A DNA stretch of 64,000 nt from contig NC_043000.1 in NCBI RefSeq assembly GCF_006345805.1, positions 66,588,001 to 66,652,000 of the forward strand. The letters are read 5' to 3'. Shown here one piece after another: positions 3,589 through 48,519 of this stretch. The DNA is from Octopus sinensis. Lineage: Eukaryota. The first letter of the stretch is position 1. The number at the start of each line of letters is the position of its first letter. The notes under the pieces are model-generated. The model searched no databases. It had not been told where the DNA came from and saw only the letters and a list, made by a program, of their open reading frames with translations. Position numbers and translations under genes: made by a program.

Positions 3589-3803
3589 AAAGCAACTAGC
3601 TGGCAGAATCATTAGTACACCAGGCAAAATGCTTAATGGTGTTTTGTCCATCTTTACATTCTGAGTTCAAATTTTGCCTAGGTCAACTTTACCTTTTATC
3701 CTTCCAGGGTCAATAAAATAAGTGCCAGTCGAACATTGAGGTTGATGTAACTGACTTAGCCCCTCCCCTGAAATTGCTGGTCTTGTGCCAAAATTTGAAA
3801 CCA
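3589..3803 (+). mobile_element. tRNA-derived SINE family 1, tail type A
   Basis: Head 'agctggcagaatcattag', B-box-like 'gagttcaaatt', tail 'gctggtcttgtgccaaaatttgaaacc'. Confidence 0.8.
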
Positions 3804-9276: not shown

Positions 9277-12035
9277 ATCATCATCATCATCGTTGTTTAA
9301 TGTCTGCTTTCCATGCTGACATGGGTTGGACGGTTTGAGGGCTGGTGAGCCAGAAGGCTGCACCAGGCTCCTATCCAATCTGGCAATGTTTCTACAGCTG
9401 GATGCCCTTCCTAATGCCAAACATTCCAAAAGTGTAGTGGGTGCTTTTTACGTGCCACCAGCATGAGGGCCAGTCAAATGCTACTAGCATTGACCACACT
9501 TGGATGGTGCTTTTATGTGCCACAGGCATAGGAGCCAGTCAGGCAGCACTGAGAACGACCATGCTTGAATGGTGCCTTTTACATGCCACTGGCACTGGAG
9601 CCAGTCAGGCAGCACTGGCAATGATCACACTCGCATGATGCTCTTTACGTGCCACCAGCACAGGACCAGTCAGGTGGCATTGGCATTGACCACGCTCAAA
9701 TGGTGCTTTTTATGTGCCACTGGCATGTTTGCCAATCAGGTGGTACTGTCATCGGCCACGACAACGACTTCACTTGCCTCAACAGGTCTTCGCAAGTACA
9801 GTTTATTGCCCAATGATTGAACGGTACTCTTAAATGGGCTGGTTATGCTGCACTGGCATAGGCCACGGTTATGGTCTCACTTGACTTGCTGGGTCTTCTC
9901 AAGCACAGCATATCTCCAAAGGTCTTGGTCACTTGTCATCGCCTCGGTGATGCCCAACATTTGAAGGTTGTGCTTCAACACCTCATCCCAGGCCTGCCTG
10001 AGTTACTTCTTCCACAGGATCACTCTACTGCTAGGGTGTGACACTTTTACACATAGCCGTCCTCATCCATACGCAACACCTAACTGTACCAGTGCAGTCA
10101 TCTCTCTTGCACACCACATCTGATGCTTCTTATGTCCAACTTTTCTCTCAGGGTGCTTACACTCTGTTGTGTATGCACACTGACGTTACACATCCAGTGG
10201 ATCATACTAGCTTCATTCCTTTCAAAGTTATGCATGTCCTCAGCAGTCATGGCCCATGTTTCACTGCCATGTAGCATGGCTGTTCGCACACATGCCTCAT
10301 ACAGTCTGCCTTTTACTCTGAGTGAGAGGCCCTTTGTCACTAGCAGACGTAGGAGCTCTCTGAACTTTGCCCAAGCTATTCTTATTCTAGCAGCTACACT
10401 CTCAGAGCAGCCACCCCCGCTACTGATTTGGTCACCTAGGTAGCGGAAGCTATCAACTACTTGTAGTTTTCCGCCTGGAATATGACTGAAGCCGTTTTCT
10501 GCCCATTTTCAGTGATTAATACCCCTGAGCATTTGCCACGCACAAAAACTATCTTCTCATAGCTTACACCGGGTACATTTTATGGAGTTTCTACCTATGC
10601 CTTTTTTTACAGATTGAGCAGGGCTATCTACCTGAAGGGATTTGTGGTTTGTCTGCCTTCCTACTTATTAAGACTTTGGTTTTTGCTAGATTGATTCTAA
10701 GGCCCTTCACTTCTAGACCTTGCTTCCACACCTGAAACTTCTCCTCTAGTTCTGATAGTGACTCAGCTATTTTGAGCAAGGTCATCAGCATAGAGAAGCT
10801 CCCAGGGCCATACTGTCTTGAATTCTTCTATTATTGCCTGGAAGACTATGATGAATAAGAGGGGGCTGAGGACTGCTCCTTGGTGGACCCCTACTCCTAC
10901 CCGAAATTCTTCACTGTACTTGTTGCCAACTCTCACCTTACTGACAGCATCCCTGTACATGGCTTGTACAGCTCCCACTAACCACTCATCTATCTCTAAT
11001 TTCCACATTGACCACCAGATAAGGGATCAAGGGACCCTGTCAAAGCCTTTCTTCATGTCAACAAAAGCCAGATACAGAGGTTTATCTTTGGCTAGGTATT
11101 TCTCCTGCAGCTGTCTTACCAGAAATATAGCATCAGTGGTACTTTTTCCTGGCACAAACCCAGACTGCATCTTGTCTAGACTGACTCTCTCCCTAATTAG
11201 TTGGGAGACCCTCTCCCAACTATGACCCTCTCCGTGACTTTCATTACCTGATCCAACAACTTGATACCTCTGTAATAATTCATATCTAATGCATCACCCT
11301 TACCTTTGTAGCAGTTGACTATAGTGCTGTTACACCAGACATTGGGTATGACTCCTTCATGTATCACCTGATTGACTATACGGGTTACTAGACTATAGCC
11401 GATACCACCAGATATTTTAAGCATCTCTGTGGTGATTCCTGACGGGCTGGGGGCTTTCCCTATCTTCGTACCCTTAATTGCTTTATCTACCAAGGTACTG
11501 TCAATTCGGATAGCTGGTCACTCTGTTGGGTCAACATTTGGCAGACTCTCTTTCTCCCATTCATTCCCTTCATTTAGCAATCTTTCATAGTGGTGTCTCC
11601 AGGTCTCTCTCCTTGCAGCCTCATCAAATGCAAGTGAACCATCATCCATGCAGACACATTTCTCTCCTATGACATCATGATTCTCTCTCACACACTGTCT
11701 TGCAACATGAAGCACTTCAAGTCTTTGGTCCTCATGATGCAGAGCATTAGCAAATTTTTTCTTATCTGCTTCCCCTCTGGCTAAGTAAACCTGTCTCCTA
11801 GCTTTCCTTCTGGCAATCAGATACAATCCCCTGCTACCACCGTTTTTCCAGTCTTCCATGCCTGTTTCTTTACCTTCATGGCCCTGTTAACTACATTGTT
11901 CCACCACCATGTTATCTTGGGTCGAGAGGGGACTTTGCACCATTTACAGATCTGTAGAAACCTCCAGTTGTCTTCCACATCATGTGATGCTATATCCCTC
12001 TCTATTTTGTCAAAAGCTTCGAGTAATACGTTTTA
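9277..12035 (-). mobile_element. RTE-clade LINE, 5'-truncated and decayed
   Basis: Broken RT frames: GKAPSPSGIT, NYYRGIKLL, VGVHQGAVLSPLLF, LLYADDL, LYEACVRTAMLHGSETW; ~60-bp tandem units in 3'UTR (9430-9730); (GAT)n tail. Confidence 0.9.
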
Positions 12036-14973: not shown

Positions 14974-16459
14974 CCCTTTCATTACCAAGCCGCCCAAAAC
15001 CGTCCGTAATTACCTATTCATATTTAAATGAGAATATCATTAAAAATCTCGTTAGTACATTCGTGAAAACACGTGATTATACTTCGTAAACAGTTCATCT
15101 ACAGTTTTGTACAACGATCGACGTGTAATTTTAATTCCCTGAATTTTGGGAGATTTTTTTCCACATTTTTTTCGACATCGATTTTTCTTCAACTTTGAAA
15201 TGGATAGGAGTTTCATGTTATCAAGCATTGATTACGAATTTAAAGCTTTTTCAACGGAAAATAGAGAGATATCGAGAAAAAGAATGAATGAGGTTCAAAA
15301 GCACGTGGTGTACAAAATAATGAATAGGATATTTTTTTATCCGAAACCGAAAAGCAGCGATTTCGAAGAAACAAATCCGCGATGGTGACAGCAAAGACGA
15401 TTTTACATCGGAATGAAGTAAAAAACTTTTAAAATGTTTTTATTAGCAATTTTTCTGAGGAGATAGTTTATCTATATTCTTTCTTAGGAAGCAAAACCGT
15501 TAGACTTTGTTTTTTCTGTATGCTTGTTTGGAGCGATCACTGTGGAAGCAAACTGTTTCGCAGAATGTAAACAAACACAAAATGAGGGATCAAAGTTCGG
15601 AAAATTTGTGAAGTAAATACTGGGCACTGTTGTGGATTTAGTTTTTATACAGGGAAACTAATGTTAGTCAGCATGGCTTAGGGTATGATGGGGTCTGGAA
15701 GTTATTGTTTGAAGCGATCAATGCGGAAACAAATTTACGCAGATTGTAAACAATCACAAAATGGGGGATCAAATTTCGGAAAATTTGTGAAATAAATACT
15801 GGGTACTGTGTGGATTTAGTTTTTATACAGGGAAAATAATGTTAGTCAGCATGGCCTAGGGAACGATGTGGTCTGGAATTTATCACTTCCATACCATAAC
15901 CAGGGCCGTATATTATTTTTTGACCTATTTCTTTAGTTTGGTCAAACTTGCGGTGGATTCCAGTATTTCACTTTATTCCACCTTTATGGTACACCTGTTG
16001 TGCATTAAATTCAACTGATGTGCACAATTCTTCTTTATCAAAATTTTGTTGCATACCCATTTGAATATTAGCTGATGATTCATTTTCTATGGTGATATTT
16101 AAACAAAATTTTAATATTTTTACCTTTTGCTCAATTTAAAATTTAAAAATTTTTGCCTTTTGCTCAATTTAAAATTTTAATATTTTTACCTTTTGCTCAA
16201 TTTAAAATTTTAATATTTTTACCTTTTGCTCAATTTACCTGGATTTACCTGCAATTAAAGTCACTTTGAGACAAAAGTTATGCAATAGAATTGATTAAGA
16301 ACCCTTTCTTTAATTATGTTCCAAATATCACATTAATATGTTGATAAATAAAAAAAGTTACAGTTACTTAATGAAACAAGCCTAAATTCATGATTATTTT
16401 AGAATTTAATTGAAACTCATGAGGGGTGTATTTTGGTCAGAAATATAGTAACGAAAGGG
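14974..16459. mobile_element. Non-autonomous piggyBac-type element, 1486 bp
   Basis: TTAA|CCCTTTCATTAC...GTAACGAAAGGG|TTAA; internal ~178-bp tandem duplication (15525-15880) and ~33-bp minisatellite (16105-16236); no transposase. Confidence 0.88.
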
Positions 16460-23640: not shown

Positions 23641-24290
23641 TGTGTAAATATGTAAGTTACCATCACTCAAATGCTATATTAACCAATTAAGAGTTTAATG
23701 TACAGTAGAAACGTTTGATCACTATAAACAAATCATTTGTGCAGGTTATCCATCAAGAAATTGTAGAGTCATCTTTCTTGGACTGCGAGAGGCTACCATC
23801 ATCATAGGAGTTCACTTAGAAAACTTCACTCCTTAATTCTGATTCCAAACTATTTTTATTTCGTCTATAGGTAGGATTACCATAATTTCCAGAAGTGAAA
23901 CGTGGAACAATTGGAGTTGAAGCCAGGACCATGGGAGTTGATTCCAGGTGCAAAGGAAATTGAAATTGGGACCAATGGAATATCACACATGTTTTTAAGA
24001 GTCGCAACGTGTGAATTGAGTATTAAGGGTGAATTAGTCTCCTCTTCTCACAAGTCAGAGGATCTAGGGATTTCTTTTTACTGCAAATATATTTACATAT
24101 TTGCATGTTTTTTTCTGAATATGAAGGCAGTTCCTAGCAAGTGTTGAAAGGATATGTGAGACAGTAAGATGTACGATTTATCTTTATCACTTAAAAGATT
24201 GAGAATCTGGCCGAGGGATAGAAAAAGGTGAACAGAAACATGTACGAAGCAGCTATTATTTACATGGCAGCACATGCACTTAAAATATTA

Positions 24291-24461
24291 GTTTCAAGTT
24301 TTGGCACCAGGCCAGCAGTTTCGTGAGAGGAGTAAGTCGATTACATTTACTCCCAGTGCCCAACTGGTACTCATTTTATCGATCACGAAAGGCAAAGTCG
24401 AGCTCGACGAATTTGAACTCAGTATGTAGAGACAGACGAAATGCTGCTCAGCTAACGTTTC
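24291..24461 (-). mobile_element. SINE family 1 host copy: body + tail A (head displaced to 30178-30240)
   Basis: Tail A 'ctggcctggtgccaaaacttgaaac'; outer TSD 24272-24290 vs 30241-30259 (17/19). Confidence 0.8.
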
Positions 24462-24646
24462 TTATTTCTTTACTGCCCACAAGGGGCTACACACATAGGG
24501 GGCAAACAAGGACAGACAAACAGATTAAGTCGATTATATCGACCCCAGTGCGCAACTGGTACTTATTTAATCGAACCCGAAAGGACGAAAGGCAAAGTCG
24601 ACCTCAGCGGTATTTGAACTCAGAACGTAACAACAGACGAAATACC
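24462..24646 (-). mobile_element. SINE family 1, tail type B, nested
   Basis: Starts GGTATTTCGTCTG; ends 'ccccttgtgggcagtaaagaaataa', directly followed by head sequence GAAACGTTAGC. Confidence 0.85.
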
Positions 24647-24820
24647 TATTTCTTTACTACCCACAAGGGGCTAAACACAGCGAGGACAGACAAACGGATT
24701 AAGTCGATTACATCGACCCCAGTGCGTAACTGGTACTTAATTTATCGACCCCGAAAGGATGAAAGGCAAAGTCGACCTTGGCGAAATTTGAGCTCAGAGC
24801 GTAACAGCAGACGAAATACG
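24647..24820 (-). mobile_element. SINE family 1, tail type B, nested
   Basis: Starts CGTATTTCGTCTG; ends 'ccccttgtgggtagtaaagaaata', directly followed by GGTATTTCGTCTG. Confidence 0.85.
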
Positions 24821-25056
24821 AATTTCTTTATTGCCCACCGGGGGCCAAACATAGATATGGACAGTACAACTGATGAGATCAGTGAATCGATATGATTTTA
24901 CATAAATGTGACATCAAAAATAAAATACAATACATAAAAATCGAATGGAATACACAGTACAAAAACAATACAAATGAAGCGATGATCAAGTTACGCTCCG
25001 ATCCCACAAGCCCCGATCTACCGCTGATACCTTTTTTTTTTTTTTTTCTCGTCTAT

Positions 25057-28000
25057 TCACACGGTTCCTTGCACGCACAACACTCGTGCAACATACTTCC
25101 ATCTCTTTTGGAACGTACACTCTGACAGACACCTCTTCTCCAGCCACAGTTTCCTTTTCAAATGAAAAGAAAAAAAAAAAGGATCGCAAATTGTCACCAG
25201 AGATAAAGTTGCCTGTCTTAATTCCTTTTATCCTAGTCTTCCATACAGCCTCTTTTGCTATTGCTACAACCGTGAGAAAACAATTCTTACCCTCGTTCGT
25301 TAGAACTCCCGGTGGGTCAATTTTTATAATTGACTCAGTCGACAGCCGTACTCTTCCTTCGCCGGACAACAGATGTTCAGCATAAGCCCACATTTCAGTT
25401 ATCTCCGGACACTGAACAATAGCGTGAGGGACGGTTTCCCTGTCCCCACCGCATCTTGGACAGGTCGGCGACTGACGTTTACCATGTCTTGCGAGCTTAT
25501 CCCAAAGGGGCAAGGCACCTCTGTAGCATTGCCAGGTTAAGGACTTTTGGAAGTTGTCCAACGTTCTCAACCCGAATGTACGATGAAACAAGCTGTCCAG
25601 TTGAATAAATCCGAGACCTAGAGTCGACCCCAGGCCATCGTCGCATTCAGACTCTACCAACCCACTATATAAAATCCGTGTGGAACCCCCCCCCCCCCCC
25701 CGCTGGCGTTGCCCGAGCGCCGGAACAGCAAGAGGGCCTTACGGCACTCTTTATGCCACTCACTCGACCTCGGTCTACGAGAACACCAGGCTTCCTGTTC
25801 GCAAAAACTCTTGAACTCAGGGAACATTTGTCTGGCCAGCGGAGACCACACCCATTCACTATCCAGGAGAATCCAGAGGTGCCTCAACCTCAACGCATGT
25901 CTGCGCATCATTAACCAAGGCATCCCTAAACCTCCATTTAAAGGCTTTTGACAGCAGACAGAGCGTTTCACAAGTGGCGACCTGCCCTTCCACAAAAAGC
26001 GAAAGAGCTGTCTCTCCAACCTGATCAACCACGAATCCGGACGGCACGACGGTCAGGCGGTAGGTAATGACCGATGCGATAAACACATTGGCCACTTCCG
26101 CCCTCCCTTTCAGGGATAGCCATCGCCAAGACCAGGTCTTGACTACTGCAGCCACCCTGCTCAATACCTCCGTCCAGTTCTTCTCTATCTGGAGGCCTGG
26201 TCCAAACCAGACTCCCAGCAACTTAACCGGTCCCTCCGTCCAGCGCCTAACAACACTGTCTGAAGGCATCGACTTGCCAACCCAGGTGCCGAGCTGCAAG
26301 CCGACCGACTTTTCCCGGTTAATCTTTGCTCCTGCTACCTCCTCGTAAGCCTCAATAGTCTTACCTACTTCACGTAGGCGTGCCACTGTGGTTACACTGA
26401 TAGTGATATCATCCGCGAAAGCCGTAACAAACTCCTCTAGTCCTGGTTCTCTCGGGATGCCACTCAACCTTTGCAGTAATGGCTCGAGAGCCATCACATA
26501 CAAAAGTGGTGAAAGCGGACATCCTTGACGAACCGAGCGTCTGATGCAGAACGGCTTCGAAAGGAAACCGTTCACCCGAACTATCGAGTCAATGTTGTGG
26601 TACAAAGCGATAAACCACCCGAGGAAGCCAAGGCCCAGGCCAAACCGCGCAAGTACAGTCGCTAGGTATCGATGGTCAACCCTATCAAAAGCTTTAGACT
26701 GGTCCAAATGCACCAATGCCCCACCTTTGCCAGATTTATTACCAAACCTCTCTATGGTATAGCGAATAAGATGGAGGGTATCTTGAATGGTTCTGCCTGG
26801 GATGGCACATGTCTGTGCCTCCCCGACTATACCAATCGCGACACGCGCCAACCTTTTTGCTAGAACCTTGGCCAAAATCTTCACTTCTGCGTTTAACAGA
26901 GTGATGGGCCTGAAATTATCTAGAACGTCCCCCTTGTCCGGGTCCTTTCTGATCAACGTCACTACTCCCCGGCGCACAGATCTGGGGATAAACCCATTCT
27001 GTTTCCAGTTCGCGTACACGTCAGTCAGTAGTTGCCCGAACAAGTCTGGCATACATTTATACAGCTCGTACGGAAGACCATCAAGTCCCGGTGACTTACC
27101 CGCTTTACAATCGGCCAAAGCCTCCATCACCTCCTCAGGTGTGATTGGCCCTTCGCAAGACTCCGCATCCGACCCCGAGAGGCACGGCAGCCCGGTAAGA
27201 AAGTCCTCGAGGGCTCTCCCACCACCAGGACCGCCGTCACCCCCGAACAGCTGGGCGAAGTACTCCCGAAAGACCTCACACATTTTCTCGGGTTCGTTTA
27301 TCAAGACACCATTTTGATTCGTCAAAGACCGAATAGAGGAACTATTTCCTTGCCGAGCTTCCACCACTCGGGCGCATCCAGCGGCTTTGATTCCTTCACT
27401 TCCCATTGCACGTAACTTAGCTCTGGTAATACTTCCCATGTGGTGGGCTTCAAGATGTTGGTTTAACTCCAGTCTTTTCACCCTCGCTTGGTCTGTATTA
27501 CAAGTCCTCCAGGCTTCTTCTAGTTCCTTAACTAGACCATCTCCTATTTTACGTCCCTTCTTAGCTAAACTTATGCTAAACCTAATAGACTCATATTTGA
27601 TGGCTCTTTTTAGGGCGTACCACCATTTGTTATTAATGATGGTACCTGTTAATGCCCTCTGTATTAACATCTTGATCCGCTTCTCTGTACTCCTCAATCG
27701 CCAAAAGGGACGTATTGAGTTTCCAGTAGCCAGATCCCTGTCTATGCAACTTATCTACCGTCAGTTTACAGGTAACCATCTTGTGGTCACTGTAGCTGAC
27801 TAGAAAAAACTGTGGACACTCAACTATGGACTTATCTTTTTCTCTAATTAAAATCCTATCTAGATATGTTCTGGTAGACCCGTCACTATTTGACCACGTC
27901 CACTGTGGAGTGTTCGGGTGCTCCAACCTATATGGATCTGCTAGCTGAAATTGACTTAGCAGATCCCGAAAGCCTGGGTTACATTTTCTGTTCATGTTCG

Positions 28001-28469
28001 AGTTTGAGCCAACACAATCTGTGTGTGCTGCACATATTGTATTAGAGTCTCCTAACACTACTAGTGAATGCGACGTGGCTAGGAACTTTCCTAGGCCACG
28101 AAAATATTCAGTTTGCGGGCCAATAATGTTTGGTGCGTAAATAGCGACCAGCCTGATTGTCTTGCCACAACTGAATGTCAAATCGAGAACGACCAGCCTG
28201 CCTTCTGGGTCAGAAAAAACCAACTTTTTCTCGGCTACCCGGTTTCTTTTTAGTAGGACCAACACCCCACCCCCACCTCCCGCCCGACTCGGAGAAACGT
28301 ATTTCTCGTAGCCGTTCAGGAGGGGGAGCAGATCTCTTGGTCCCTTCACCCGGGTTTCCGTTGCAACAATTACATCCAAATTTCTCGACCTGATGTCATT
28401 CAGAAAGCGTCCTTGCTTCCAGCTTGACAACAGGCCATGAACATTTAAACAACCAATGTGAATAGCCAT
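25057..28469 (-). pseudogene. Tx1 ORF2: APE endonuclease, reverse transcriptase, C-terminal Cys domain (frameshifted)
   Basis: LNVHGL, ATET, IYAPN, LGDSN, LDRI, SDH; KSPGLDGLP, NFRPITLLN, LDQSKAFDRV, VRQGCPLSPLLY, FADD; GGLGMP; CPRCGGDRETVPHAIVQC; shifts near 27700, 26040, 25690, 25170; inferred stop 25057-25059. Confidence 0.93.
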
Positions 28470-28480
28470 CACTTACCTGT

Positions 28481-30037
28481 TTAATTAGGATTGTCCGGTG
28501 GAGGGGGACCCTCCACCTTTTTTTGATCCAGGGTCGGTGGACGGTCTTGGGAAATAGATTTGTCAAAATCCCGTCTCACCACCGACACAGAATTATCAGG
28601 TGGAGGGGGAATCTCCACCTTTTCCTTTTCTCGCGGGATCGGAGCTGGTAATCCATGAAATATCGACTTGTTAAAATCTAATCTCAATGAAGATACAGTC
28701 TTTCTGTACTTATTTTGTAGAATTCTATAAGTCTTATTTGAGACTTCATATATGTCGTAATTGATAAATTCCTCTGAAAGGTTATCAATTTTTTTTAGTC
28801 TTTATGAGTTGAATGTCTCTCATGAGCTCAGTATCTTTAGTGTATACGGCTATTATGCCTTTTTCTGCTTTTTCTCTTCTGGCAGTCTTTTTTGGTCGTT
28901 GTTCTGTAGTAGTCGCCGCTCTCGGCTGGGTTGCTGGTTGTATTTTTCTTTTGTTTGTTGTTTTTTTCTCATCTGTTTCTTCTTTATCTTCTTCCTCTTT
29001 GTCTTTTTTCTCCTCTTCCTCCTCTTCTTCATTTTCCTTGCAGTTCCTTCGAATGTGGCCTAATTGACCACATAAAAAACATCGAGGTTTTCGGCCCTCA
29101 ACAAACACCACGAGGTTCTCCTCCCCTACCTCAATTGTCTCAGGAATTGTTTGAATTATTTTAGGGTCCGCTTGAATGAGAAGATTAATTGTTTGACCAT
29201 CCCAGCGTGGGTTTTCCGTAGCGGTAGCCTGGAGGAGAGTAATTTTTTTTACCTCTTTGATTAGGACTGCCGCCAACAACCACATAGGTTCGACCTCTGG
29301 CGGGACCCTTGTAATTTTTATTCGCGACGTCCTCATCCCCCTATAATAGGGGATTAACTCCACGTCGTTCGTTTTCAACGTTTCAACTGAGTTCTTGTGT
29401 GCTATTTCTTTATTGGTGAACCTTACTTCCACCGTTCCGAATTTTTTTCCTCTTCTCAGAAATACGTCGCCCAATATTGGCTTTAAGCACTTTTCTATTT
29501 TCTCTTCTGACATTCTGACATTCTTTCAATTTTTCTTTTTTGTAGACAATATGTTTTGAAAATTATTGTTTTTTGCTTTTCTTCCTGTAATAACTTTTGC
29601 GGAGGTTCAATTTTCACACCGTTGTCAGTTATTTCCATCATTTTGCTGTATTTCATAATTTCGCTTTTATTCGTCGACAGTATCTGGGTTCCACCCCCAG
29701 CAGCCAACGCAAAACTTTTTTTTCCATTTTTTGGTTCTATCTGGATGCTAGGCACATCAATTATTCTCTTCGACACAATGCCTTTGTTCTCTGGCAAAGT
29801 CGGAAACTCTTCTGGTGAAAGTTCTGACGAGCTCTCAGACACATCTCCAAAAATATCAAATATATTATCCTCTCTGCTATTCCTTCTTGTAGCGGGGGAA
29901 ACCCCTATTTCCTTGTCTGTAGTTGGCTCCTCGCCGGACATGTATTTCCTCCTCTCAACAGGAGAAACAAGTATTTCTGCTCCAACGGTAGGCTCCATGC
30001 TAGACGACATTCTTCCCCCCAAAGGGGGAATGAACAA
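28481..30037 (-). pseudogene. Tx1 ORF1: gag-like RNA-binding protein (frameshifted)
   Basis: ORF pieces 29495-30037, 28785-29513, 28481-28687; KSFALAAG, RRM-like segment, RCFLCGQLGHIRRNC zinc knuckle, acidic/basic tract. Confidence 0.88.
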
Positions 30038-30177
30038 CGCGTGCTACCACAAGCACTAAGTGTTTTCAATTGAAAACTCCAACAGTTAAGTTATTCAACA
30101 GTTTAACAAGAAACAACAGTTGTTAACAATATTAACACCACGAAACAGCAATTCTTACTTCACGAACACATGTGCGA

Positions 30178-30240
30178 CAGACGAAATACGGCTACGCATT
30201 TCGCCCGGCGTGCTAACGATTCTACCAGCTTCGCCGTCTT
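30178..30240 (-). mobile_element. tRNA-like head of the SINE interrupted by Tx1
   Basis: aagacggcgaagctggtagaatcgttagcacgccgggcgaaatgcgtagccgtatttcgtctg, same head as 33217-33275. Confidence 0.88.
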
Positions 30241-30329
30241 ACATGCACGTAACATATTATCAAGTAGAATTGTAGCGTTTAAAAATATATCAAACACGTG
30301 TTTTTATCAGGTAATATTTCATACAATTA

Positions 30330-30524: not shown

Positions 30525-30610
30525 TGACCCCGGTGCGTAACTGGTACTTATTTAATCGACCCCGAAAAGATGAAAGGCAAAGTCGACCTCGGCGGAATTT
30601 GAACTCAGAA
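30525..30610 (-). mobile_element. SINE family 1 body fragment
   Basis: 'aaaggcaaagtcgacctcggcggaatttgaactcagaa'. Confidence 0.7.
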
Positions 30611-33055: not shown

Positions 33056-33216
33056 AATAAGACCTGATAATATCATTTATCAATGTGTGAACGAGTTGAG
33101 TTCAGATAATTCTATTGTTTCTCTCAATCCACGAAAACTTCCTGTCGTCAATTGGTTTTTTAATGGCCATCTGGATTTTTAATCGAGGGAACAATTCTGA
33201 ATATTATGGTTTATTG

Positions 33217-33603
33217 AAGGCAGTGAGCTGGCAGGAACGTTAGCACGCCGGGCGAAATGTTTAGTGGTATCTCATCTGCCGCTACGTTCTGAGTTCAAAT
33301 TCCGCCGAGGTCGACTTTGCCTTTCATCCTTTCGGGGTCGATTAAATAAGTTACACACTGGGGTCGATATAATCGACTTAATCCGTTTGTCTGTCCTTGT
33401 TTGTCCTCTCTGTGTAACCCCTTGTGGGTAGTAAAGAAATAGGTATTTCGTCTGTCATTACGTTCTGAGTTCAAATTCCGCCGAGGTCGACTTTGCCTTT
33501 CGTCCTTTCAGGGTCAATAAATTAAGTACCAGTTGCGTACTGAGGCCGACTTAATCGACTGGCCCCTCCCCCAAATTCCGGGCCTTGTGCCTAGAGTAGA
33601 AAA
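33217..33603 (+). mobile_element. SINE family 1 nested dimer (tail-B copy inside tail-C copy)
   Basis: Head, body and tail B end at 33441, then GGTATTTCGTCTG, body and tail C; outer TSD 33199-33215 vs 33604-33620 (15/17). Confidence 0.88.
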
Positions 33604-33839
33604 GAATATTGAGGTTTATTCGTGAGAGTAAAGTAAAGGGTTTTGGTTTCAAATCCTGGTTGAGCTATTGCTAAAAGTGTTTCATAATGTATCAATATAT
33701 TACGACATTTCTGACAGATCAATATAAAAGTCATAACAAATAAAAAATATTCTAAATTTCCGAAAAAACGGAACATAATTTCAAACTAACCGAAGCAATG
33801 ATAATAAACTGGAACGTATCGTAACTACTATATATTGAA

Positions 33840-33927: not shown

Positions 33928-34599
33928 CCATTAACTGAGATAAAAAGGTGGGGGATGGATTGACCGTGGGAAGTTGGATAAAATATCTTGCAGTATTTGA
34001 CCTGGCTATTTATTTCCCCAAGTTTAAACGGTTCCGTGGTCAACAATACATTCTCTTCTTTCGGAGTCGAAAAGAAAAATGAAGTACCAGTGGCATACTG
34101 AGGTCGAATTATCTGACCGCCCTTTTTTGCATGCCCGTCGCTAAAGGAGTGCACTGGACGGCACTGCCCTCTCACTATTCAATGATGCGCCCTCAGATTT
34201 ACAGTGACACGCCTATTTCGAAACTCCACGTTAGCATTATTACAGATTAGTGCTTACCCAGAATATTCTGAAGCACCACCAGGTACCATAGTCTTGCGAC
34301 GGGTCTGAATTTGTACCAACATATAATGGACAAAATACAATATAGTTACGTGACGCGCTGATGACAGGTAAATAAGACCGGCAGCAAGAATACACTGTTG
34401 CAACATGAATCGTATTTTTGTGTCTACTCTGTATTACATCACCGACACACACACAAACTCTCCCTTAGTAAAAATGAACTCTATCAAACGTGATATTGAT
34501 AAATAGAACCAGATTTCGTTTAAAAAGTAAGTAAACAAAATCTAGTTTCTTTGTAACATTTTCATCGCATCAATACGCATGAATGTGTTTCTAACATAC

Positions 34600-35042
34600 T
34601 GGTTTCAAATTTTGGTACAAGGTAAGTAATTTTGGGATCGGGGTAAGTCGATTATATTGGCCCCAGTGTTCAACTAGTACTTATTTTATCGATCTTGAAA
34701 GGATGAAACGTAAAGTCGACTCGGACAGCTTTTGAACTCAGAACGTAATGTCAGGAGAAATGCCGCTAAGCACTTTTCGCATTGTGGAAACGGTTCTTCC
34801 AGCTCGCCGCCCTTTGTGCTTCTTATATATTGATTTCAAATTTTGGTACAAAGCCAGCAATTTTGGGGTTGGGGTAAGTCGATTACATCGACCCCCGTCT
34901 CCAATTGGTACTCATTTATTTATCCCGAAAGGATGAAAGGTAAAGTCGACTTCGGCGGAATTTGAACGCAAAACTTGAAGATGGACGAAATGCCGCTAAG
35001 CATTTTGCCCAGTGCCGTAACGATTCTGCTAGGCCGCCGCCC
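34600..35042 (-). mobile_element. Two tandem full-length SINE family 1 tail-A copies
   Basis: Units ~34600-34812 and ~34831-35042. Confidence 0.85.
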
Positions 35043-35136
35043 CATGTGTTTCTTATATATTGATTGTAATAATTAATTAGGTATATTTAATTATCGATAT
35101 TACCAGAGAAATATATACTTTAACATTGCTTAACAC

Positions 35137-37016: not shown

Positions 37017-40000
37017 CTAGATAAGTGCTGTAACGGATTACTGGGGCTCCAAGGTTATGGAACATTGTTGCCTCATCCCACTGCAGATATACATTCACGC
37101 ATGTCAGTCTAAAAGTGACAGTGTAATAGTAATGTAATAGTAATACTTTAACACTCAATGGTTTTACACTTCTGTATATGACATGGACCTACTATGTAAG
37201 TGCTTCTTCATATACTGTGTTTTTTGTCTTGCCATGTTTATCCCTGAGAATGTAGAGGTTCTTTTTTTATCTCAAACTCTAGAACATCCAACATACAGCT
37301 GACCATGTGAGAAACAGGATTGAAGGAGTTTAAGATCCACCACCTTTAGAGACTGACCTTGTGCTTTTTTGATAGACATTGCAAAGCTAAGTTTGACAGG
37401 AAATTGCAGTCTCTTGAACTGAAAGGGGAGATCATTTGAGATGAGAGGTATCCTTGGAATGAAGACATTCTCCCCATCATGTTGCCTGTAATTATTGTTG
37501 CTTCCAACACATGAAGCATAGCTATTTTAACAACCAATATTCTTCCATTGCAGAGTCTGGGTGCATCAAGGTTTCTTAATAGCTTTATGGGAGCATCTGT
37601 TTTCACGATCAGAATGTGTGGTGGAAATTCTGGTGGCTGAAGTGAATTGAGGAACTCCACTGGGTAATGCGTTGCCTGTTCTTGATCAGGAACAGAGTCA
37701 ATTGATCTGTACGCAATTGATTAGGTCCTGGAAGCTGAGGCAACAAATTTGAATTCAGCTTGTCTACAGCATCATTCCTTGGTGCCAGAATTGTTCTCCC
37801 ACATAGCCACTTGTGACTTTTATAGTTTGTGGCAATGTTTGGAAACACCTTGCTCTTTAGTTCTTCAACGGAGGCAGTCATATTACCACATGGGAGATGG
37901 TGCAGACATCTTCTGGATCTTGTGGAAGCTTTCCACTTCCAATGTCAAGTAACTTATTGGAGAACTGTGTGGCTAACGGATCACCATGAATGTGGATCCT
38001 CATGTTGCTTGTCAGAGTAAGCTGCTTGACATGTTGCCAGATATATGAAGACTTGATGCAAGCTCTCAGCTCATCTGCCCTTGTTCCTCTGGGAATGACA
38101 AGCAGCGTTTGCCTGAAGTCACTTGCCATGAGGAGGGTGACACCACCCATGATCTAATTGCTTCTGAAGTCTTGTAATGTTGTATCAAGCGCCACAAAGG
38201 CTGCCTTTTGGGACATTGTTGCCTCATCCCAGACGATGAGTTTGGCATCTGTAAGGAGCTTTGCTAATGATGTATTCTTGGATATGTTGCATAAAGGAGA
38301 TTCATTTTGGATGAGGTTCAGAGGCAGCTTGAATGTTGAATGGGCTGTTCTTCCACCTGTCAGAAGTGAAGATGCAATTCCAGAGGATACAACAGCCAGA
38401 GCAATCTTCTGTCTCACCTTGGCAAGGAACTGATTGATCAATAATGTCTTTCATGTGCCTCCAGGAGCATCTAAGAAGAAAACCCCCTCCAGTGTTATTG
38501 TCCACAGATGTAAGAACTTGCCAGTATACCCCCTCTTGATCCTGTAGCAGAATTGGTTCCTTTTCATTGACAACTGCTTGCACACTTTTCAAGTTGTATG
38601 ATGTTTCCCTGATTAGCTCTTGTGCTAACATATATTTAGCATCTCTGACAGGAGCTGGAAGACCATAGATTTCAAGTTTGTTTCCATCCAGTGATTGAAC
38701 CTTGTTGTCTATTAATCTTAATGCTTCATTGAAAATGTCATCATTGAACGTGACATCACAGTCACACTAATATTTAATTCTTTGAAGAATGTCTCCAAAA
38801 AGCCCCTCCTTGTATTTGTACCAAAGTTGATCTGGATTTGACAATCCACAGTTCACCAGCATGATGGAGAAGAGGTTTCTCAGTTGCATAGGAGACTTGC
38901 ACATTTGTGCCTCTGTCAGAGTGACATCCCAGTATGCATCATCTTCCAGAAAACCTCTGAGATGGCAAGCCTGGCGATATGTTTGACATACTGTGTTATC
39001 AACCGTGCATAAAGCTGTAAATGATGTGGGTCCCTTGACATGGTGTAATAGAAGTCTTAGATAGTAGCACTCTGAGTAGTTTGGATGGACAACATAGACA
39101 CTGCCAAGTGTGTCTGATTTTTTGATTCACGGATGATGTGTAGGTGCTCCAAGTGCACGTCTTTTCCATTTGTTTTGGCAACAGGTATGGAATGGTGGAA
39201 CTTCATTGTATAGTAGTGTTGTAACAAATTCATCATCTTGACAGAGCTTGAAGAATACTGTGAGTGTGAGCTTCCATTTGTAGTTGGACTGTGTCTAGGA
39301 TGTAGTAAACCATTTCGCCATTCTCCAAGTGAACTGCAAGATGTTGCACGTGGGGATATCTCTCATGAATGGGGAACCTGAAGATTCTCCAACATGCTTC
39401 ACCACTGTTGATACACCTTCACATTTGGAAGGTCTTGATTTTAGCATTGCTCCCTGAATCCTGGACTGCACAGACTGCCATGTCAGATCCTTTGTTGACA
39501 TATTTGTACACATACTTAATGGATTTCACTGAGTTACAGAACTCAACATTGATGTGTGCGTTGAATATCCTGAAGAGATATTGTCAACGGGAATTTCAGT
39601 TTCAAATAACCTCTTGTTGTTGGTTTCAAACCCATCATCACTTGGCCTTCTTCTTCTGAAGAGTGGATAGCCATCATGTCCAGTCTGTGTCTCTTGAAGG
39701 AACTTCTTTTGAAAGCCTTTTCTACACTTTCTATCCTGCATGCATGGAGCATGTAAGTTGATGTTGCCACATGGACCATGAACCATTTGGGTCTTGACCA
39801 CATTGAAGAGTTCTGGATCTTCTGAGGATCTGGAATCTCTGCACTGATGAACTTATCTATTATCCAGGCATAGATTTAGTCTGTAAGCCACAGCAGGATG
39901 TGTACATGAGGAAGTCCACGTTTCTGCCACTCTATTGTATATATGTGGAATCTAGTGGCACCGAACACTTTATCTTTGGTCAGTAACTGCATGAGCTTGA

Positions 40001-42356
40001 TAACCTTCTGTCTGAAGACCCTTGCCTATCGTTAGGCTGTTGGTTTGAGAAGAGTTCATTTTGAATCTCTTTCCCTTTAGGATTGTATGTGAAGGTTATG
40101 AAGAGGTCTGTTCTGAAGTAGTGTCTAACATATGTCATGGCATCTTCTGTGTGCTCATGCATGTATCTTGGGCTTGCTGTGAATGATGATGGAAGGATGA
40201 TCAGTTGGCCCATGTTGCTGACATCATGATCATTCAGCATTGCATCTTGTAGGTGTGCATATGATTCCACACTCAATTTCTTCTGGTTCAGTCTCAAGTA
40301 GAGTAATCGTTCACTTTCAGTTTATGCATACGTGTCAACAATGAACTGACTGAACAGACCTCTACAATGTAGGATGTGGTTTGAATCTTAACTCCTGATG
40401 TGGAATGCATAGAAGTCATTGGCTGAAACTCGCTTTGAGAAGTTTATCTGACTAATGTCAATGTGGTAAATATTTTGTCCATAACAGAACAGCAATGTAT
40501 ATTGTAGTGCATCATAGGATCTGTGCGTTTCTGAAATCCTCATCAATGTGCTGCCTCTGAGATGGAAGACAATATCACGTTTGTCATGTTCTTGCTCAAC
40601 CAGAAGCACAGCTATTTCATTTACCGTTGGCGCATTAACCCTCTCTCCATGTTGACCAGATGGTTTCTTGTCTGATCTGATAACTACTTTGCAATCCATG
40701 GAGTCAGGTGGAATTGTTTCAAGCGCTGTTTTGAAGCTTCTGATCAGGTTGTTACTGCAATGCAGCATCTTTTGCAGAGACTCTACAATGTTCATCCTGA
40801 TGCCGGAAATGTTCTTGCATTTCTATTGAGAATCATCCATAAAATATATTTGAAGGAATTTTGGTGATTCATTCGACAGAGGTAGTAGAGAGCCAATCCG
40901 ATGATAAATCTGACCTTGGACATTGAAAGTTGGCATGAATCCTGGTTCAATTATATCTCTTGTGGCTCCAAATGATGTCATCTGTAGTGCAGCATTGTAC
41001 TGTCTAACTTTGTTTTGGAAGTGCTTGGAATCTTGGTCAGTTGATGACAACAGTTTCTTCAATGGCTCTGGAGGTAGGGGGATTGCAGGAAATTTAACCT
41101 TTCCACCACCGCAGCACAGTGCAGGTGTTTCTCCAAGCCACTTCCTTGCTTTACAATATATGCACTCCGTTGTCATTGCACCAATAGAAACTCCAATGTC
41201 ATCTGCATAATGAATTGCTGGATCATAATCGAAAGCTGCTTCATAGAAGTTGCTTCTCTGAGCTGTTGCAACTGCTCTTCGTTCTGCAGTGGAGATCCTA
41301 TTCCTTGTCAGTCGTGCATACTTCTGTTCATTACTTTGAGATGTTCTGATTTTTATAGTACACAGCCTGTTCGTTTCTTGGTGTGCTTCCCTTTCTGCAG
41401 CTGTCTCCCTTTCCCTGGACAGAGACATTCTTTTGGCTGACCATGACATTGTAGACAAATTTAATACTTTCCTTCTAGGTATGGTTATATACGTATACAG
41501 AAATACACGGGTGCAGAAGATAGTAAACAAGGTAACGGAAATTATGTTTCTTAACACGACGGGCAGAAAGCAAATAAGAAATTTTAACTGAAAATAAAGT
41601 ATTGTACGGGTTGAAGCGAAATTTGTCACTCAGTTAACCAAAGAGTCAGTATCGAAGGAACCAGAAAAAACCGTACTTCTCTCAGTAAATTATGAAATTA
41701 CATCAGTAATAGTGAAGTTGTCATAAATAGCAATTTAAAACTTAAACTTACAGTCAAAATAATAACGATTGTAGTTAAAGTGAAAAAACAATAGCGTGGG
41801 AAAATTGAAACCGTACGGATTGAAGTGAAATTAATGAAGATACTTCTGTCAGTAAATTATGAAATTGCTTACATCAGTAATTGCGAATTTCTTTCTATCA
41901 GTAATTAGTCGTTGTTTGTTTGTAAATAGTGATTCAAAATTTAGACTTACAGTGAAAACAATAACATGGAAATTAAACAATGGCGTATGAAAATTGAAAG
42001 TGAAAAGAATAGCGTCTGAAAAATGAAAGTGAAAACAAGAGATATAGATAGAGGTAGATAGCGAGAGATTGATGCATAAAGAGAGAGATGGATACATAAA
42101 GAGATATGTTACGTCTTTGATGCTAGAAAATCGGAAGTAAATATTTTCAAATCTTTCAAAGTCGTGAATGTAATATAAAAAGCAATAGCAGCATGTAAAT
42201 ATTTTTTTATTTTTAATAATTTTTAATAAAAAAAAAAAAATCAAATGAATAGCCTATAATTTGTCCGAGGTCAAATTATTCATGCATCACAAGTATGATA
42301 GCAATTGGTGAAGCCGTTTTCCCATGAAAAGTGAATACTCACGCGTCTCTATTATA
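37017..42356 (-). mobile_element. Helitron, autonomous type, decayed
   Basis: 3' CTAG at 37017-37020 with remnant hairpin GTAA-TCCG-TTAC; 5' end '..TATAATAGAGACGCG'; RepHel coding region. Confidence 0.9.
37200..41449 (-). pseudogene. Helitron RepHel (HUH Rep + PIF1-like helicase), multiple frameshifts and stops
   Basis: [125 protein letters not shown]. Confidence 0.93.
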
Positions 42357-47004: not shown

Positions 47005-48380
47005 ATGTTGGCTGCCCCCTCGAGTATAGCCATTGCACGAAGCTTAACTGTTATTGGTGCTGTGATCGAATGTGACTTTTTAGCCCAGCTAAAGATCTAC
47101 AATGTCTTGTGCAGAATTGGCAACTAAAACCTTTACCGGTAATAGCCGGCTGTAGTTGTAACTGGGCTTCATGTACCTTTGCATGTCGTTTAAGTCCTCC
47201 TGCCGAATTACACTCTCTTCCACATGCCTGACAGATATGATTAGTATGGTGTCTAACACCATCACCAGTGGCCAGGTTGTCACTCATCGGTTTTGCTTTA
47301 TGACAACAAAGATGACTCTTGAGTCCAGCTTTACTGAGGCAAGGTCTTGCACAGACACTGCATGTCAGCATCATAGGAATACCCTTCCCATCTGGAAGTG
47401 TAACAGCAATGCTCTTCCTGACATCCCTCCTTACTTTCTCATGCGCAACTCGAGATTTCTCAAAAGTAGCTGTCTCCTCATGCACAATCCTTCTCCACCT
47501 GCTACAATCAATAGCTATGCCCTCCCATGTGTCAGGAGAAATGCAAGCATCTCTTAAGGAAGCCTTCAGCAAGTCCTTATATCTCTTTTTTGGTTTATGT
47601 GGGGGTCGTTCTCCTTCAGCTAACTCTCCATAAAAGTGTTGTTTTGGCATCCTGGAATCCTTCATCCTGATCAGATGACCACTCCATCTGAGCCTTTCCT
47701 TTAACACAAGAGCTTCTATACTTTCGCACCGAGAGCCTTCCAATATTTAAAGATCACCGATGCAGTCCCTCTTAATGCCATAGATCCGTCTGAGACACAT
47801 CTGATGGAAACGTTCCAGTTGTTTAAGGTGGTATCGATAAGTGAACCACGTCTCGCAGGCATAGAGAAGAGAAGGGAGCACACATGCCTTGTGCACCTTT
47901 ATCTTTATCTTTCTGCATATGTCTCGCCGACTCCAGAGGCGCCTTTCTAGCCTTCCGAAAGCATCACTTGCTTTCCCAATTCTGTATGGAATTTCATCAG
48001 CCAAATTGCCATATCTATTAACAGTGCTTCCCAGGTAGACAAACTGATCAACTACATCAAGTCGTTTACCATATACATATATATTTGGTACACTATACTG
48101 CTTACCAAGGGCAGGTTGGTACATGACAAGAGTTTTCTTGAGATTGACTGTCAATCCTAAGGCAGTGCAAGCATCAGAGAATGCATTCAAAATGTATTGC
48201 ATATCAATCTCTGTGTGCGCTACTAGATCACTATCATCTGCACACAAAAGGTCTCTTATGATAGAGGTAAATACCTTTGTTTTTGCAGCAAAGGGCTTGA
48301 TATTAAATATGCTGCCAGAGGTTCGATAATGGATGTAAATACCATATCTGCAGTTTCTGAATGCAATACAGAAAACCATC
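47005..48380 (-). mobile_element. RTE-clade LINE 3' part with C-terminal C2H2 fingers
   Basis: IRDLLCADD, LGLTVNLKKT, FVYLGS, LLYACETW, RLRWSGHLIRM..SRMPK..YGEL, KRYKD. Confidence 0.9.
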
Positions 48381-48519
48381 TGTACATACATCAACTATAC
48401 ATACATACATGCATGCGTGCACACATACAAACGTACATTCATACACTCATATAAGTGTGTGTGTATTTATTCGCAAGGATGACACGCAAATTCGTGAAGC
48501 GTTCCATATTTTTATTACT

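What the first reader, a model, noticed from the sequence alone, without database searches (positions are those of the whole stretch)
24462..24865. SINE tail type B resembles the Tx1 3' end: a SINE mobilised by the LINE that targets it
Seen (- strand): the LINE ends '...tgtccatatctatgtttggcccccggtgggcaataaagaaatt'. Tail-B SINEs end '...tgcccccTatgtgtgtagccccttgtgggcagtaaagaaataa' and '...tgtgtttagccccttgtgggtagtaaagaaata'. Both keep a GCCC...GGG stem-loop followed by (A/G)TAAAGAAAT and lack a poly(A). Established: SINEs often share 3' tails with their partner LINE. Inference: a 5'-truncated Tx1 landing in or next to a SINE may have donated this tail, so the SINE subfamily now inherits the LINE's target, which is its own head.
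Basis: partly seen in the sequence, partly recalled or inferred. Interest (0 to 1): 0.82.

Follow-up and report, generated by a model that had tools for sequence, protein, structure and literature searches.

The report
Octopus SINE that targets its own head
A very abundant short repeat (SINE), likely from an octopus, has a subfamily that ends in the same 35-55 bases as a rare long jumping gene (LINE) found inserted in the SINE's own front end, and every copy of this subfamily in the window sits in such a front end too, so it likely borrows the LINE's enzyme and landing site and stacks up inside its relatives.

Summary
Observation confirmed. The 3' end of a full-length, frameshifted L1/Tx1-type LINE (24821-~30175, minus) matches SINE tail B: scores 38-51, best of 3000 shuffles 28-29, the 8 other SINE tails 10-14. 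The LINE lies in a SINE head with a 13/13 target duplication. All 3 tail-B copies are followed directly by head sequence, 2 at the LINE's exact site; 0 of 8 tail-A/C copies are. The whole 6-kb stack is bracketed by one host SINE's duplication (17/19), and B bodies resemble a distant B copy more than their neighbours, so the stacks are nested insertions, not local duplications. Best reading: tail B came from, and is mobilised by, this LINE family or a sister, and inherits a target inside its own head. Weak points: two loci only, no genome; the hairpin is no better than shuffles; its loop matches older SINE tails rather than this LINE; the direction of transfer is inferred. Shared tails and inherited targets are each known; I found no paper with both plus self-targeting. 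This scan noted SINE-targeting Tx1-like LINEs before in other genomes, without a self-targeting SINE in the lines shown.

The parts
30241..30259 (-). 5' copy of the host SINE's target-site duplication, bracketing the whole stack
   Evidence: 17/19 match to 24272-24290, score 13; random pairs reach 12 or more in 1 of 300
30191..30240 (-). Single SINE head 5' part (tRNA-like, putative A box; tRNA origin recalled, not detected by ARAGORN or Rfam); holds the 5' copy of target site 1 at 30212-30223
   Evidence: negative
30178..30190 (-). 5' copy of the LINE's target-site duplication (target site 2 in the SINE head); extends to 14/16
   Evidence: 13/13 with 24808-24820; both copies begin with C where other heads have G
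24821..30175 (-). Full-length L1/Tx1-type LINE, broken by frameshifts in this copy; 5' end between 30173 and 30177
28785..30043 (-). ORF1 in two frames, with a CCHC zinc knuckle (about 29034-29084)
   Evidence: PF00098, E 3.5e-5
27633..28469 (-). ORF2 AP-type endonuclease domain
   Evidence: PF03372, E 1.3e-11; best solved match human L1 ORF2
25859..27754 (-). ORF2 reverse transcriptase
   Evidence: PF00078, E 1e-28; closest named relative from Argonauta, 62%
24986..25738 (-). ORF2 C-terminal part with zf-RVT
   Evidence: PF13966, E 3.2e-8
24821..24874 (-). LINE 3' terminus shared with tail B (firm over 24821-24855, weaker to 24874); 4-bp stem 24845-24842/24836-24833, loop CCGGU, then AATAAA, no poly(A)
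24647..24820 (-). SINE unit B1: starts at target site 2 (the LINE's 3' duplication copy, 24808-24820), then B box, body and tail B (about 24647-24700)
24463..24646 (-). SINE unit B2: starts at target site 2, then body and tail B (about 24463-24526); its own 3' junction is at site 1
   Evidence: site-1 duplication 11/12
24291..24462 (-). Remainder of the host SINE A1 (tail A), starting at target site 1
24272..24290 (-). 3' copy of the host's target-site duplication
33216..33441 (+). Second locus: one head plus body plus tail B (B3), followed directly by target site 2
33442..33603 (+). Remainder of the host SINE C1 (tail C); the pair is bracketed by a 15/17 duplication at 33199-33215 and 33604-33620

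Best explanation
Tail B is a SINE 3' end homologous to the 3' end of a LINE that sits inside a SINE head, and tail-B SINEs are likely copied by that LINE family (or a close sister) into the same short stretch of SINE heads, including heads of their own kind. Shown: homologous tails, shared insertion point, nested structure. Inferred steps: (1) RNA polymerase III reads a tail-B copy from the head's A and B boxes and runs on through tail B, since no TTTT lies before 199-361 nt downstream. (2) LINE ORF2 binds the 35-55 nt tail, probably at the small hairpin. (3) Its endonuclease cuts a head at site 2 (or site 1, about 33 nt upstream; both follow TRGC). (4) Because the SINE RNA itself carries the target, the cDNA can pair with the upstream head, giving a seamless 5' joint: one head and a 12-16 bp duplication. 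(5) The insert thereby takes over the host's A box and leaves the host headless; repeats give 174-184 bp tandem stacks. The tail most likely went from LINE to SINE, as AATAAA plus a short A-rich end is how related target-specific LINEs end.
For: Tail similarity: 0 of 3000 shuffles, 0 of 8 other tails. LINE duplication 13/13. 3 of 3 B tails followed by head sequence against 0 of 8 A/C tails (Fisher p 0.006; 2 of 2 against 0 of 7 loci, p 0.028). Three kinds of junction (B into C at site 2, B into B at site 2, B into A at site 1) need separate events. Host duplications bracket both stacks (17/19, 15/17). B bodies are 92-94% like the B copy 9 kb away but 84-88% like adjacent units. A/C copies instead land at AT-rich sites, with clear 17-21 bp duplications in 4 of 8. 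The RT falls among elements joined to U2 and 5S genes (support 0.89), and 4 such ends printed show AATAAA-like plus A-rich ends. In runs X1 and X15, 34 and 31 contigs lie on the LINE's last 35 nt and continue as tail B; contigs of X8 and X15 run from ORF1 into the head at the same 5' junction. Precedents: SINEU with Tx1-Mar (PMC4494074), R2/R1 SIDEs (PMC3414825), cDNA-target annealing in R2 (PMC3774820).
Against: Only 3 B copies at 2 loci and 1 LINE copy; no genome held. LINE-B identity (23-25/30) is lower than B-B (28/30), and the loop differs from the CUUGU shared by B, C and A tails, so the donor may be a sister family or the tail partly SINE-born. The hairpin is not above shuffles. One of three B copies uses a site where the LINE was not seen. 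one search shows only 24 of 3450 loose ends and 15 of 2331 joints, so it gives no genome-wide fraction; its contigs may be alleles of this locus. No activity was tested.
Confidence: 0.7

Rival explanations
1. The tail moved the other way or is private to this copy: reverse transcription began on a tail-B SINE RNA and jumped to the LINE RNA, so the LINE carries a SINE-derived end and tail B grew out of the older A/C hairpin tails.
For: B, C and A tails share the loop CUUGU in a 4-bp stem at a similar distance from the end (8 of 11 fully paired). Contigs show B variants closer to the LINE end than the window's copies (loose ends at 24855 and 24683).
Against: No target-site copy lies between the LINE UTR and the tail (the site motif occurs at 4 places only). 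Contigs covering 24876 in X12, X1 and X15 all differ from the window there and reach 37, 84 and 51 letters from their ends, so the UTR-tail joint is probably not private. B and the LINE end align with A/C tails only at shuffle level or just above (10-22). Even so, a jump by this ORF2 would mean that it accepts tail-B RNA.
Confidence: 0.12
2. Hitchhiking: tail B entered heads only a few times; the compound units (B+C, B+B+A) are then transcribed whole and spread by the LINE partners of tails A and C, so most B copies are passengers.
For: Host duplications bracket the whole compounds, as a single insertion would also give. Pol III would read through tail B (no TTTT for 199-361 nt). Dimeric SINEs are known (PMC10702118, passages).
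Against: Three different junction types in 3 copies still need at least three targeted insertions. Host A1 is 76-81% like other A copies and 84-86% like its B neighbours, while B copies are 88-94% alike, which fits later B insertion. This rival can add to the best reading rather than replace it.
Confidence: 0.12
3. The stacks arose at DNA level (unequal crossing-over or slippage between SINEs or their duplications), and tail B has no target preference.
For: TRF sees a 174-bp two-copy repeat. Tandem SINE-TSD arrays in a clam were ascribed to unequal recombination (PMC11481361, passages).
Against: Neighbouring units differ in tail type and are less alike (84-88%) than distant B copies (92-94%). 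Unit borders fall on the LINE's insertion point, which has its own duplication.
Confidence: 0.05

Closest known systems
SINEU-1/2/3 with Tx1-Mar LINEs in crocodilians (Kojima 2015, PMC4494074; parts 2-4 of 5 of the text read)
   Same: SINE and Tx1-group LINE share a target in another repeat; tandem copies sandwich a duplication (16 bp); mobilisation was inferred from the shared target.
   Different: SINEU have snRNA heads and poly(A) tails, no LINE sharing the SINEU-1 3' end was found, and the target is a separate DNA transposon. Here the tail is shared, there is no poly(A), and the target is the SINE's own head.
Stringent SINE-LINE pairs with common tails (Ohshima 2013, PMC3747384; passages and section 1.4; Table 1 not seen)
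   Same: Shared 3' end with a predicted stem-loop; 35-61 bp at 72-95% identity in bivalve pairs (PMC11481361, passages), the same range as here.
   Different: Of 58 pairs only 3 had L1-clade tails; the passages read name none for Tx1 or for a site-specific LINE. Bivalve partners are CR1, CR1-Zenon, L2 and Nimb.
R2 and R2/R1 SIDEs of Drosophila (PMC3414825; abstract and passages)
   Same: A non-autonomous element with a LINE 3' end inherits that LINE's exact site and its 14-bp duplication.
   Different: SIDEs are internal-deletion derivatives in rDNA, with a ribozyme and no Pol III head; they do not carry their own target.
Tx1-group LINEs targeting U2, 5S or transposons (targets listed in PMC4494074; the names Keno for U2 and Mutsu for 5S are recalled)
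   Same: AP endonuclease, CCHC ORF1, RT grouping with U2- and 5S-joined elements.
   Different: The target is a SINE head; the 3' end has almost no A-run; the RT forms its own cephalopod-containing branch (support 1.00).
MetaSINEs (PMC4824008; passages and part 2 of 6)
   Same: tRNA-like head, conserved central part and exchangeable tails; a cuttlefish member exists; partner LINEs stated as unknown. The resemblance of the body to the Meta domain is recalled.
   Different: Membership not confirmed: the consensus is in a figure; three 7-mers found nothing in supplement file 2, and file 1 was not searchable.

Membership tests
L1-clade LINE | ORF2 with AP endonuclease, RT and C-terminal zinc motif; RT nearer L1 than R2 | tested here: met
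   L1 ORF2 E 1e-38 against R2 6e-21; endonuclease best match L1
Tx1 group | ORF1 with CCHC knuckle rather than Transposase_22 | tested here: met
   PF00098, no Transposase_22 hit; criterion from PMC5203782 passages
Tx1 group | RT groups with target-specific Tx1 elements | tested here: inconclusive
   Inside a clade (0.89) with 6 U2-bearing and 1 5S-joined loci, FastTree on 114 sequences, midpoint root, no named Tx1 or L1 reference
Tx1 group | Sequence-specific insertion across many copies | tested here: inconclusive
   1 copy with a 13/13 duplication; same 5' junction in contigs of 2 of 4 runs, which may be alleles
Stringent SINE-LINE pair | Significant shared 3' end | tested here: met
Stringent SINE-LINE pair | Conserved 3' stem-loop with covariation | tested here: inconclusive
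   16 of 16 cells paired, 1 two-sided change, 250/500 shuffles as high; folds not above shuffles
Stringent SINE-LINE pair | Same insertion signature for SINE and LINE | tested here: met
   2 of 3 B copies at the LINE's site, 1 of 3 at a second head site
Stringent SINE-LINE pair | Trans-mobilisation depends on the tail | not testable with these tools
   needs a cell assay
tRNA-derived SINE | tRNA-derived head with A and B boxes | tested here: inconclusive
   B-box-like GTTCAAAT in most heads (consensus recalled); no tRNA hit by ARAGORN or Rfam
MetaSINE | 66-bp Meta domain after the head | tested here: inconclusive
   consensus not available as text; negative for three 7-mers in 1 of 2 files
SINEU | U1/U2 head and poly(A) tail | tested here: not met
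   no Rfam hit in the window; no poly(A)

The most novel reading that the evidence does not exclude
Tail B is a self-homing SINE: by taking the tail of a LINE that cuts SINE heads, it became a parasite of its own family. Each insertion pairs with the host head, captures its promoter, beheads the host and leaves a fresh target, so tail B converts tail-A and tail-C copies into tail-B sources and builds tandem arrays genome-wide. A tail swap would here switch both enzyme and landing site, and the three tails, with one loop in three different stems, would record successive swaps between related LINE partners.
Probability: 0.4. Interest if true: 0.8.

Novelty: new variant of a known kind. Interest (0 to 1): 0.62.

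Why it matters
SINEs make up 11.6% of the Octopus vulgaris assembly, most recently active copies are unclassified, and 80 L1-Tx1 families are counted there (PMC13282606). This finding would name a partner for one SINE subfamily and explain its tandem stacks. It would add a rare L1-clade tail pair (3 of 58 in PMC3747384) and show stringent 3' recognition without poly(A) in the Tx1 group. It would also give a natural case in which a SINE's spread feeds on its own family, with one tail exchange changing the target. It is directly testable by counting junctions in any octopus assembly. A site-specific AP-endonuclease LINE with a short cis signal may also interest retrotransposon-based gene insertion.

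Tried and rejected
No genome was held, so no genome-wide count. An exact 24-nt tail-B pattern found 0 matches in viral, genome and metagenome contigs, as expected for animal DNA. The metagenome scan for LINE relatives gave 80 distant loci (best HSP 37-41% to the RT), none with the tail or the SINE; they served only as tree anchors. The group of relatives at about 50% identity came without DNA, so their tails and targets are unseen. The Atlas gave only generic RT clusters. No RNA holder was listed; X15 is only guessed to be RNA, so nothing is said on expression. Depth is no copy number; it only suggests the SINE is 10^3-10^5 times deeper than ORF1. None of the 24 loose ends shown is a tail-B end running into unrelated DNA, but 3426 were not shown, so I give this little weight. 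Folding and covariation did not support the hairpin beyond chance. Chance similarity is rejected; local duplication is nearly rejected; a separate truncated SINE insertion behind the LINE is rejected, as no target copy lies between UTR and tail. Two SINE fragments without a recognisable tail (30526-30610, about 34018-34136) were left out of the 11 ends counted. No partner for tails A or C was found in the window: the loop-in-stem scan hit only SINE tails, the LINE end and one SINE body. Nine paper searches found no report of this pair or of a self-targeting SINE. Repbase Reports, SINEBase and the 1994 octopus SINE paper are outside the library and could hold it.

Full report
Setting. The window is animal DNA, likely from an octopod: the closest named relatives of the LINE's reverse transcriptase are from Argonauta (62%) and a cuttlefish (46%). 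No whole genome was held, so the argument rests on the window, on contigs of four public runs, on distant relatives and on papers.

The observation. The quoted ends are correct. The LINE's last 60 nt score 51, 43 and 38 against the three tail-B copies in the window; none of 3000 dinucleotide shuffles reaches these (max 28-29), and the 8 other SINE tails score 10-14. In the last 30 nt the LINE matches the B tails at 25, 25 and 23 positions, B tails match each other at 28, and the next best place in the window reaches 19-20. The match is firm over the last 35 nt and weaker to about 55 nt. In runs X1 and X15, 34 and 31 contigs lie on the LINE's last 35 nt and then continue as tail B, so some B variants are closer to the LINE end than the window's copies. 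Neither end has poly(A). The 4-bp hairpin can pair in 4 of 4 sequences, with G-C, G-U and A-U at the outer pair, but this is not above shuffles.

The LINE. It spans 24821 to about 30175 on the minus strand, with a CCHC ORF1 and an ORF2 holding endonuclease, RT and zf-RVT in separate frames. Contigs of 4 of 4 runs carry indels against the window at five places inside it, two of them where frames change, so some breaks are probably private to this copy or assembly errors. Its best solved relative is human L1 ORF2. In a tree of 114 RT segments it groups with Argonauta sequences (0.99) inside a clade (0.89) that holds 6 loci bearing U2 and 1 joined to 5S. Three U2 and one 5S junction printed show the LINE end running into the RNA gene after an AATAAA-like signal and an A-run. 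This fits the target-specific Tx1 group, but no named reference or L1 outgroup was in the tree. The element sits in a SINE head between the putative A and B boxes, with a 13/13 duplication whose two copies share a first base that other heads lack. Contigs of X8 and X15 run from ORF1 into the head at the same junction; they may be alleles or other copies.

The SINE and its three tails. Eleven SINE 3' ends were recognised: 6 tail A, 2 tail C, 3 tail B; two tail-less fragments were dropped. A and C copies end at AT-rich sites, with clear 17-21 bp duplications in 4 of 8 (scores 11-18; the other 4 score 4-8; random pairs reach 10 in 3 of 300). All 3 B copies are followed at once by head sequence: 2 at the LINE's exact site, 1 at a site about 33 nt upstream. 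Both sites follow TRGC in intact heads. The contrast is 3 of 3 against 0 of 8 (p 0.006), or 2 of 2 against 0 of 7 loci (p 0.028). The 6-kb stack head-LINE-B1-B2-A1 is bracketed by a 17/19 duplication and the pair B3-C1 by 15/17, so each stack lies inside one host insertion. Bodies of B1 and B2 are 92% and 94% like B3, 9 kb away, but 88% like each other and 84-86% like their host; B3 is 88% like its host. These are insertions of a younger subfamily, not local duplications. Each stack has only one head: the B units join it without a seam.

How it likely works. Shown: shared tail, shared site, nesting. Inferred: Pol III transcribes a B copy and reads past tail B, as the first TTTT lies 199 and 361 nt further on. 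LINE ORF2 binds the tail and cuts a head. The transcript holds target sequence on both sides of the unit, which could replace poly(A) at priming and let the cDNA pair with the upstream head. Such pairing is proposed for the uniform 5' junctions of R2 (PMC3774820, abstract and passages). The result would be a working head on a tail-B body, a beheaded host and a fresh target, hence stacks. The direction LINE to SINE is favoured by the AATAAA end typical of the relatives and by the absence of a target copy between UTR and tail. Contigs spanning 24876 in 3 of 4 runs differ from the window there and lie 37-84 letters from their ends, which suggests the UTR-tail joint is not private.

Against this reading. 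The sample is small. The B, C and A tails share the loop CUUGU in stems of different sequence (8 of 11 fully paired), while this LINE has CCGGU. The true donor may therefore be a sister family, or tail B may descend in part from older SINE tails. Compound units could also spread as passengers of tails A and C, though three junction types still need three targeted events. one search was cut to a few rows and gives no genome-wide fraction.

Comparison with what is known. Crocodilian SINEU share targets with Tx1-Mar and form tandems around a duplication, but have poly(A) tails, no shared LINE end was found for SINEU-1, and they target a separate transposon (PMC4494074, parts 2-4 of 5). Shared tails are common, yet only 3 of 58 pairs were L1-clade (PMC3747384, section 1.4; Table 1 not seen). 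Bivalve SINEs use CR1, CR1-Zenon, L2 and Nimb, and clam tandem arrays were ascribed to recombination (PMC11481361, passages). R2/R1 SIDEs inherit a LINE's site but are not SINEs (PMC3414825, passages). Tail exchange is documented (PMC5786205, passages). Two cephalopod repeat surveys list L1-Tx1 and abundant SINEs with no pairing in the passages seen (PMC8967140; PMC13282606 with its supplement). Also seen as passages: PMC4758252, PMC5203782, PMC5753468, PMC10702118. MetaSINE membership is recalled and unconfirmed. Nine searches found no report of this system; Repbase Reports and subscription papers were out of reach. Earlier notes of this scan describe Tx1-like LINEs at SINE sites in other genomes; I did not test them, and no look-alike of this sequence was listed.

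Verdict. Each part has a precedent; the combination of an L1/Tx1-type shared tail with a target inside the SINE's own head appears undescribed in what I could search. New variant of a known kind, interest 0.62; confidence in the mechanism 0.7.

Noticed in passing
window tails at 3801, 24291, 30445, 31137, 32843, 33603, 34601, 34832: Tails A and C carry the same CUUGU-type loop as tail B in different 4-bp stems (TGGC/GCCA, GGGC/GCCT, GCCC/GGGY) and insert at AATAT-like sites with 17-21 bp duplications; their LINE partner is unidentified.
   Followed up: partly
window 34601-35063 (-): Two full tail-A SINEs in tandem separated by one copy of a ~20-bp duplication (three copies in all): repeated insertion at one AT-rich site or recombination between duplications.
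   Followed up: partly
window 24451-24462 (-): Host A1 lacks about 16 nt of the head right after target site 1, while the single 5' head has them, so that head is probably a mosaic of host and insert.
   Followed up: partly
window 47051-48394 (-): 3' part of another LINE, RTE-like by recalled motifs, with C-terminal C2H2 fingers.
   Followed up: no
window 38100-41700 (-): Decayed reading frames that look like a Helitron Rep/helicase (recalled motifs; no Pfam hit for the two ORFs tested).
   Followed up: no
L015 5806-5947, L012 5815-5977, L001 4675-4885, L017 5495-5618, L033 9076-9230: Metagenome contigs with full L1/Tx1-type LINEs ending in U2, 5S or U1 genes; L013, L014, L015 and L019 also have a U2-like stretch near the element's 5' region; the U1-joined one may be a less-known target.
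   Followed up: partly
window 9440-9727 and 15524-15883: Tandem arrays of 65-bp (4.4 copies) and 178-bp (2 copies) units, unrelated to this SINE by the searches run.
   Followed up: no
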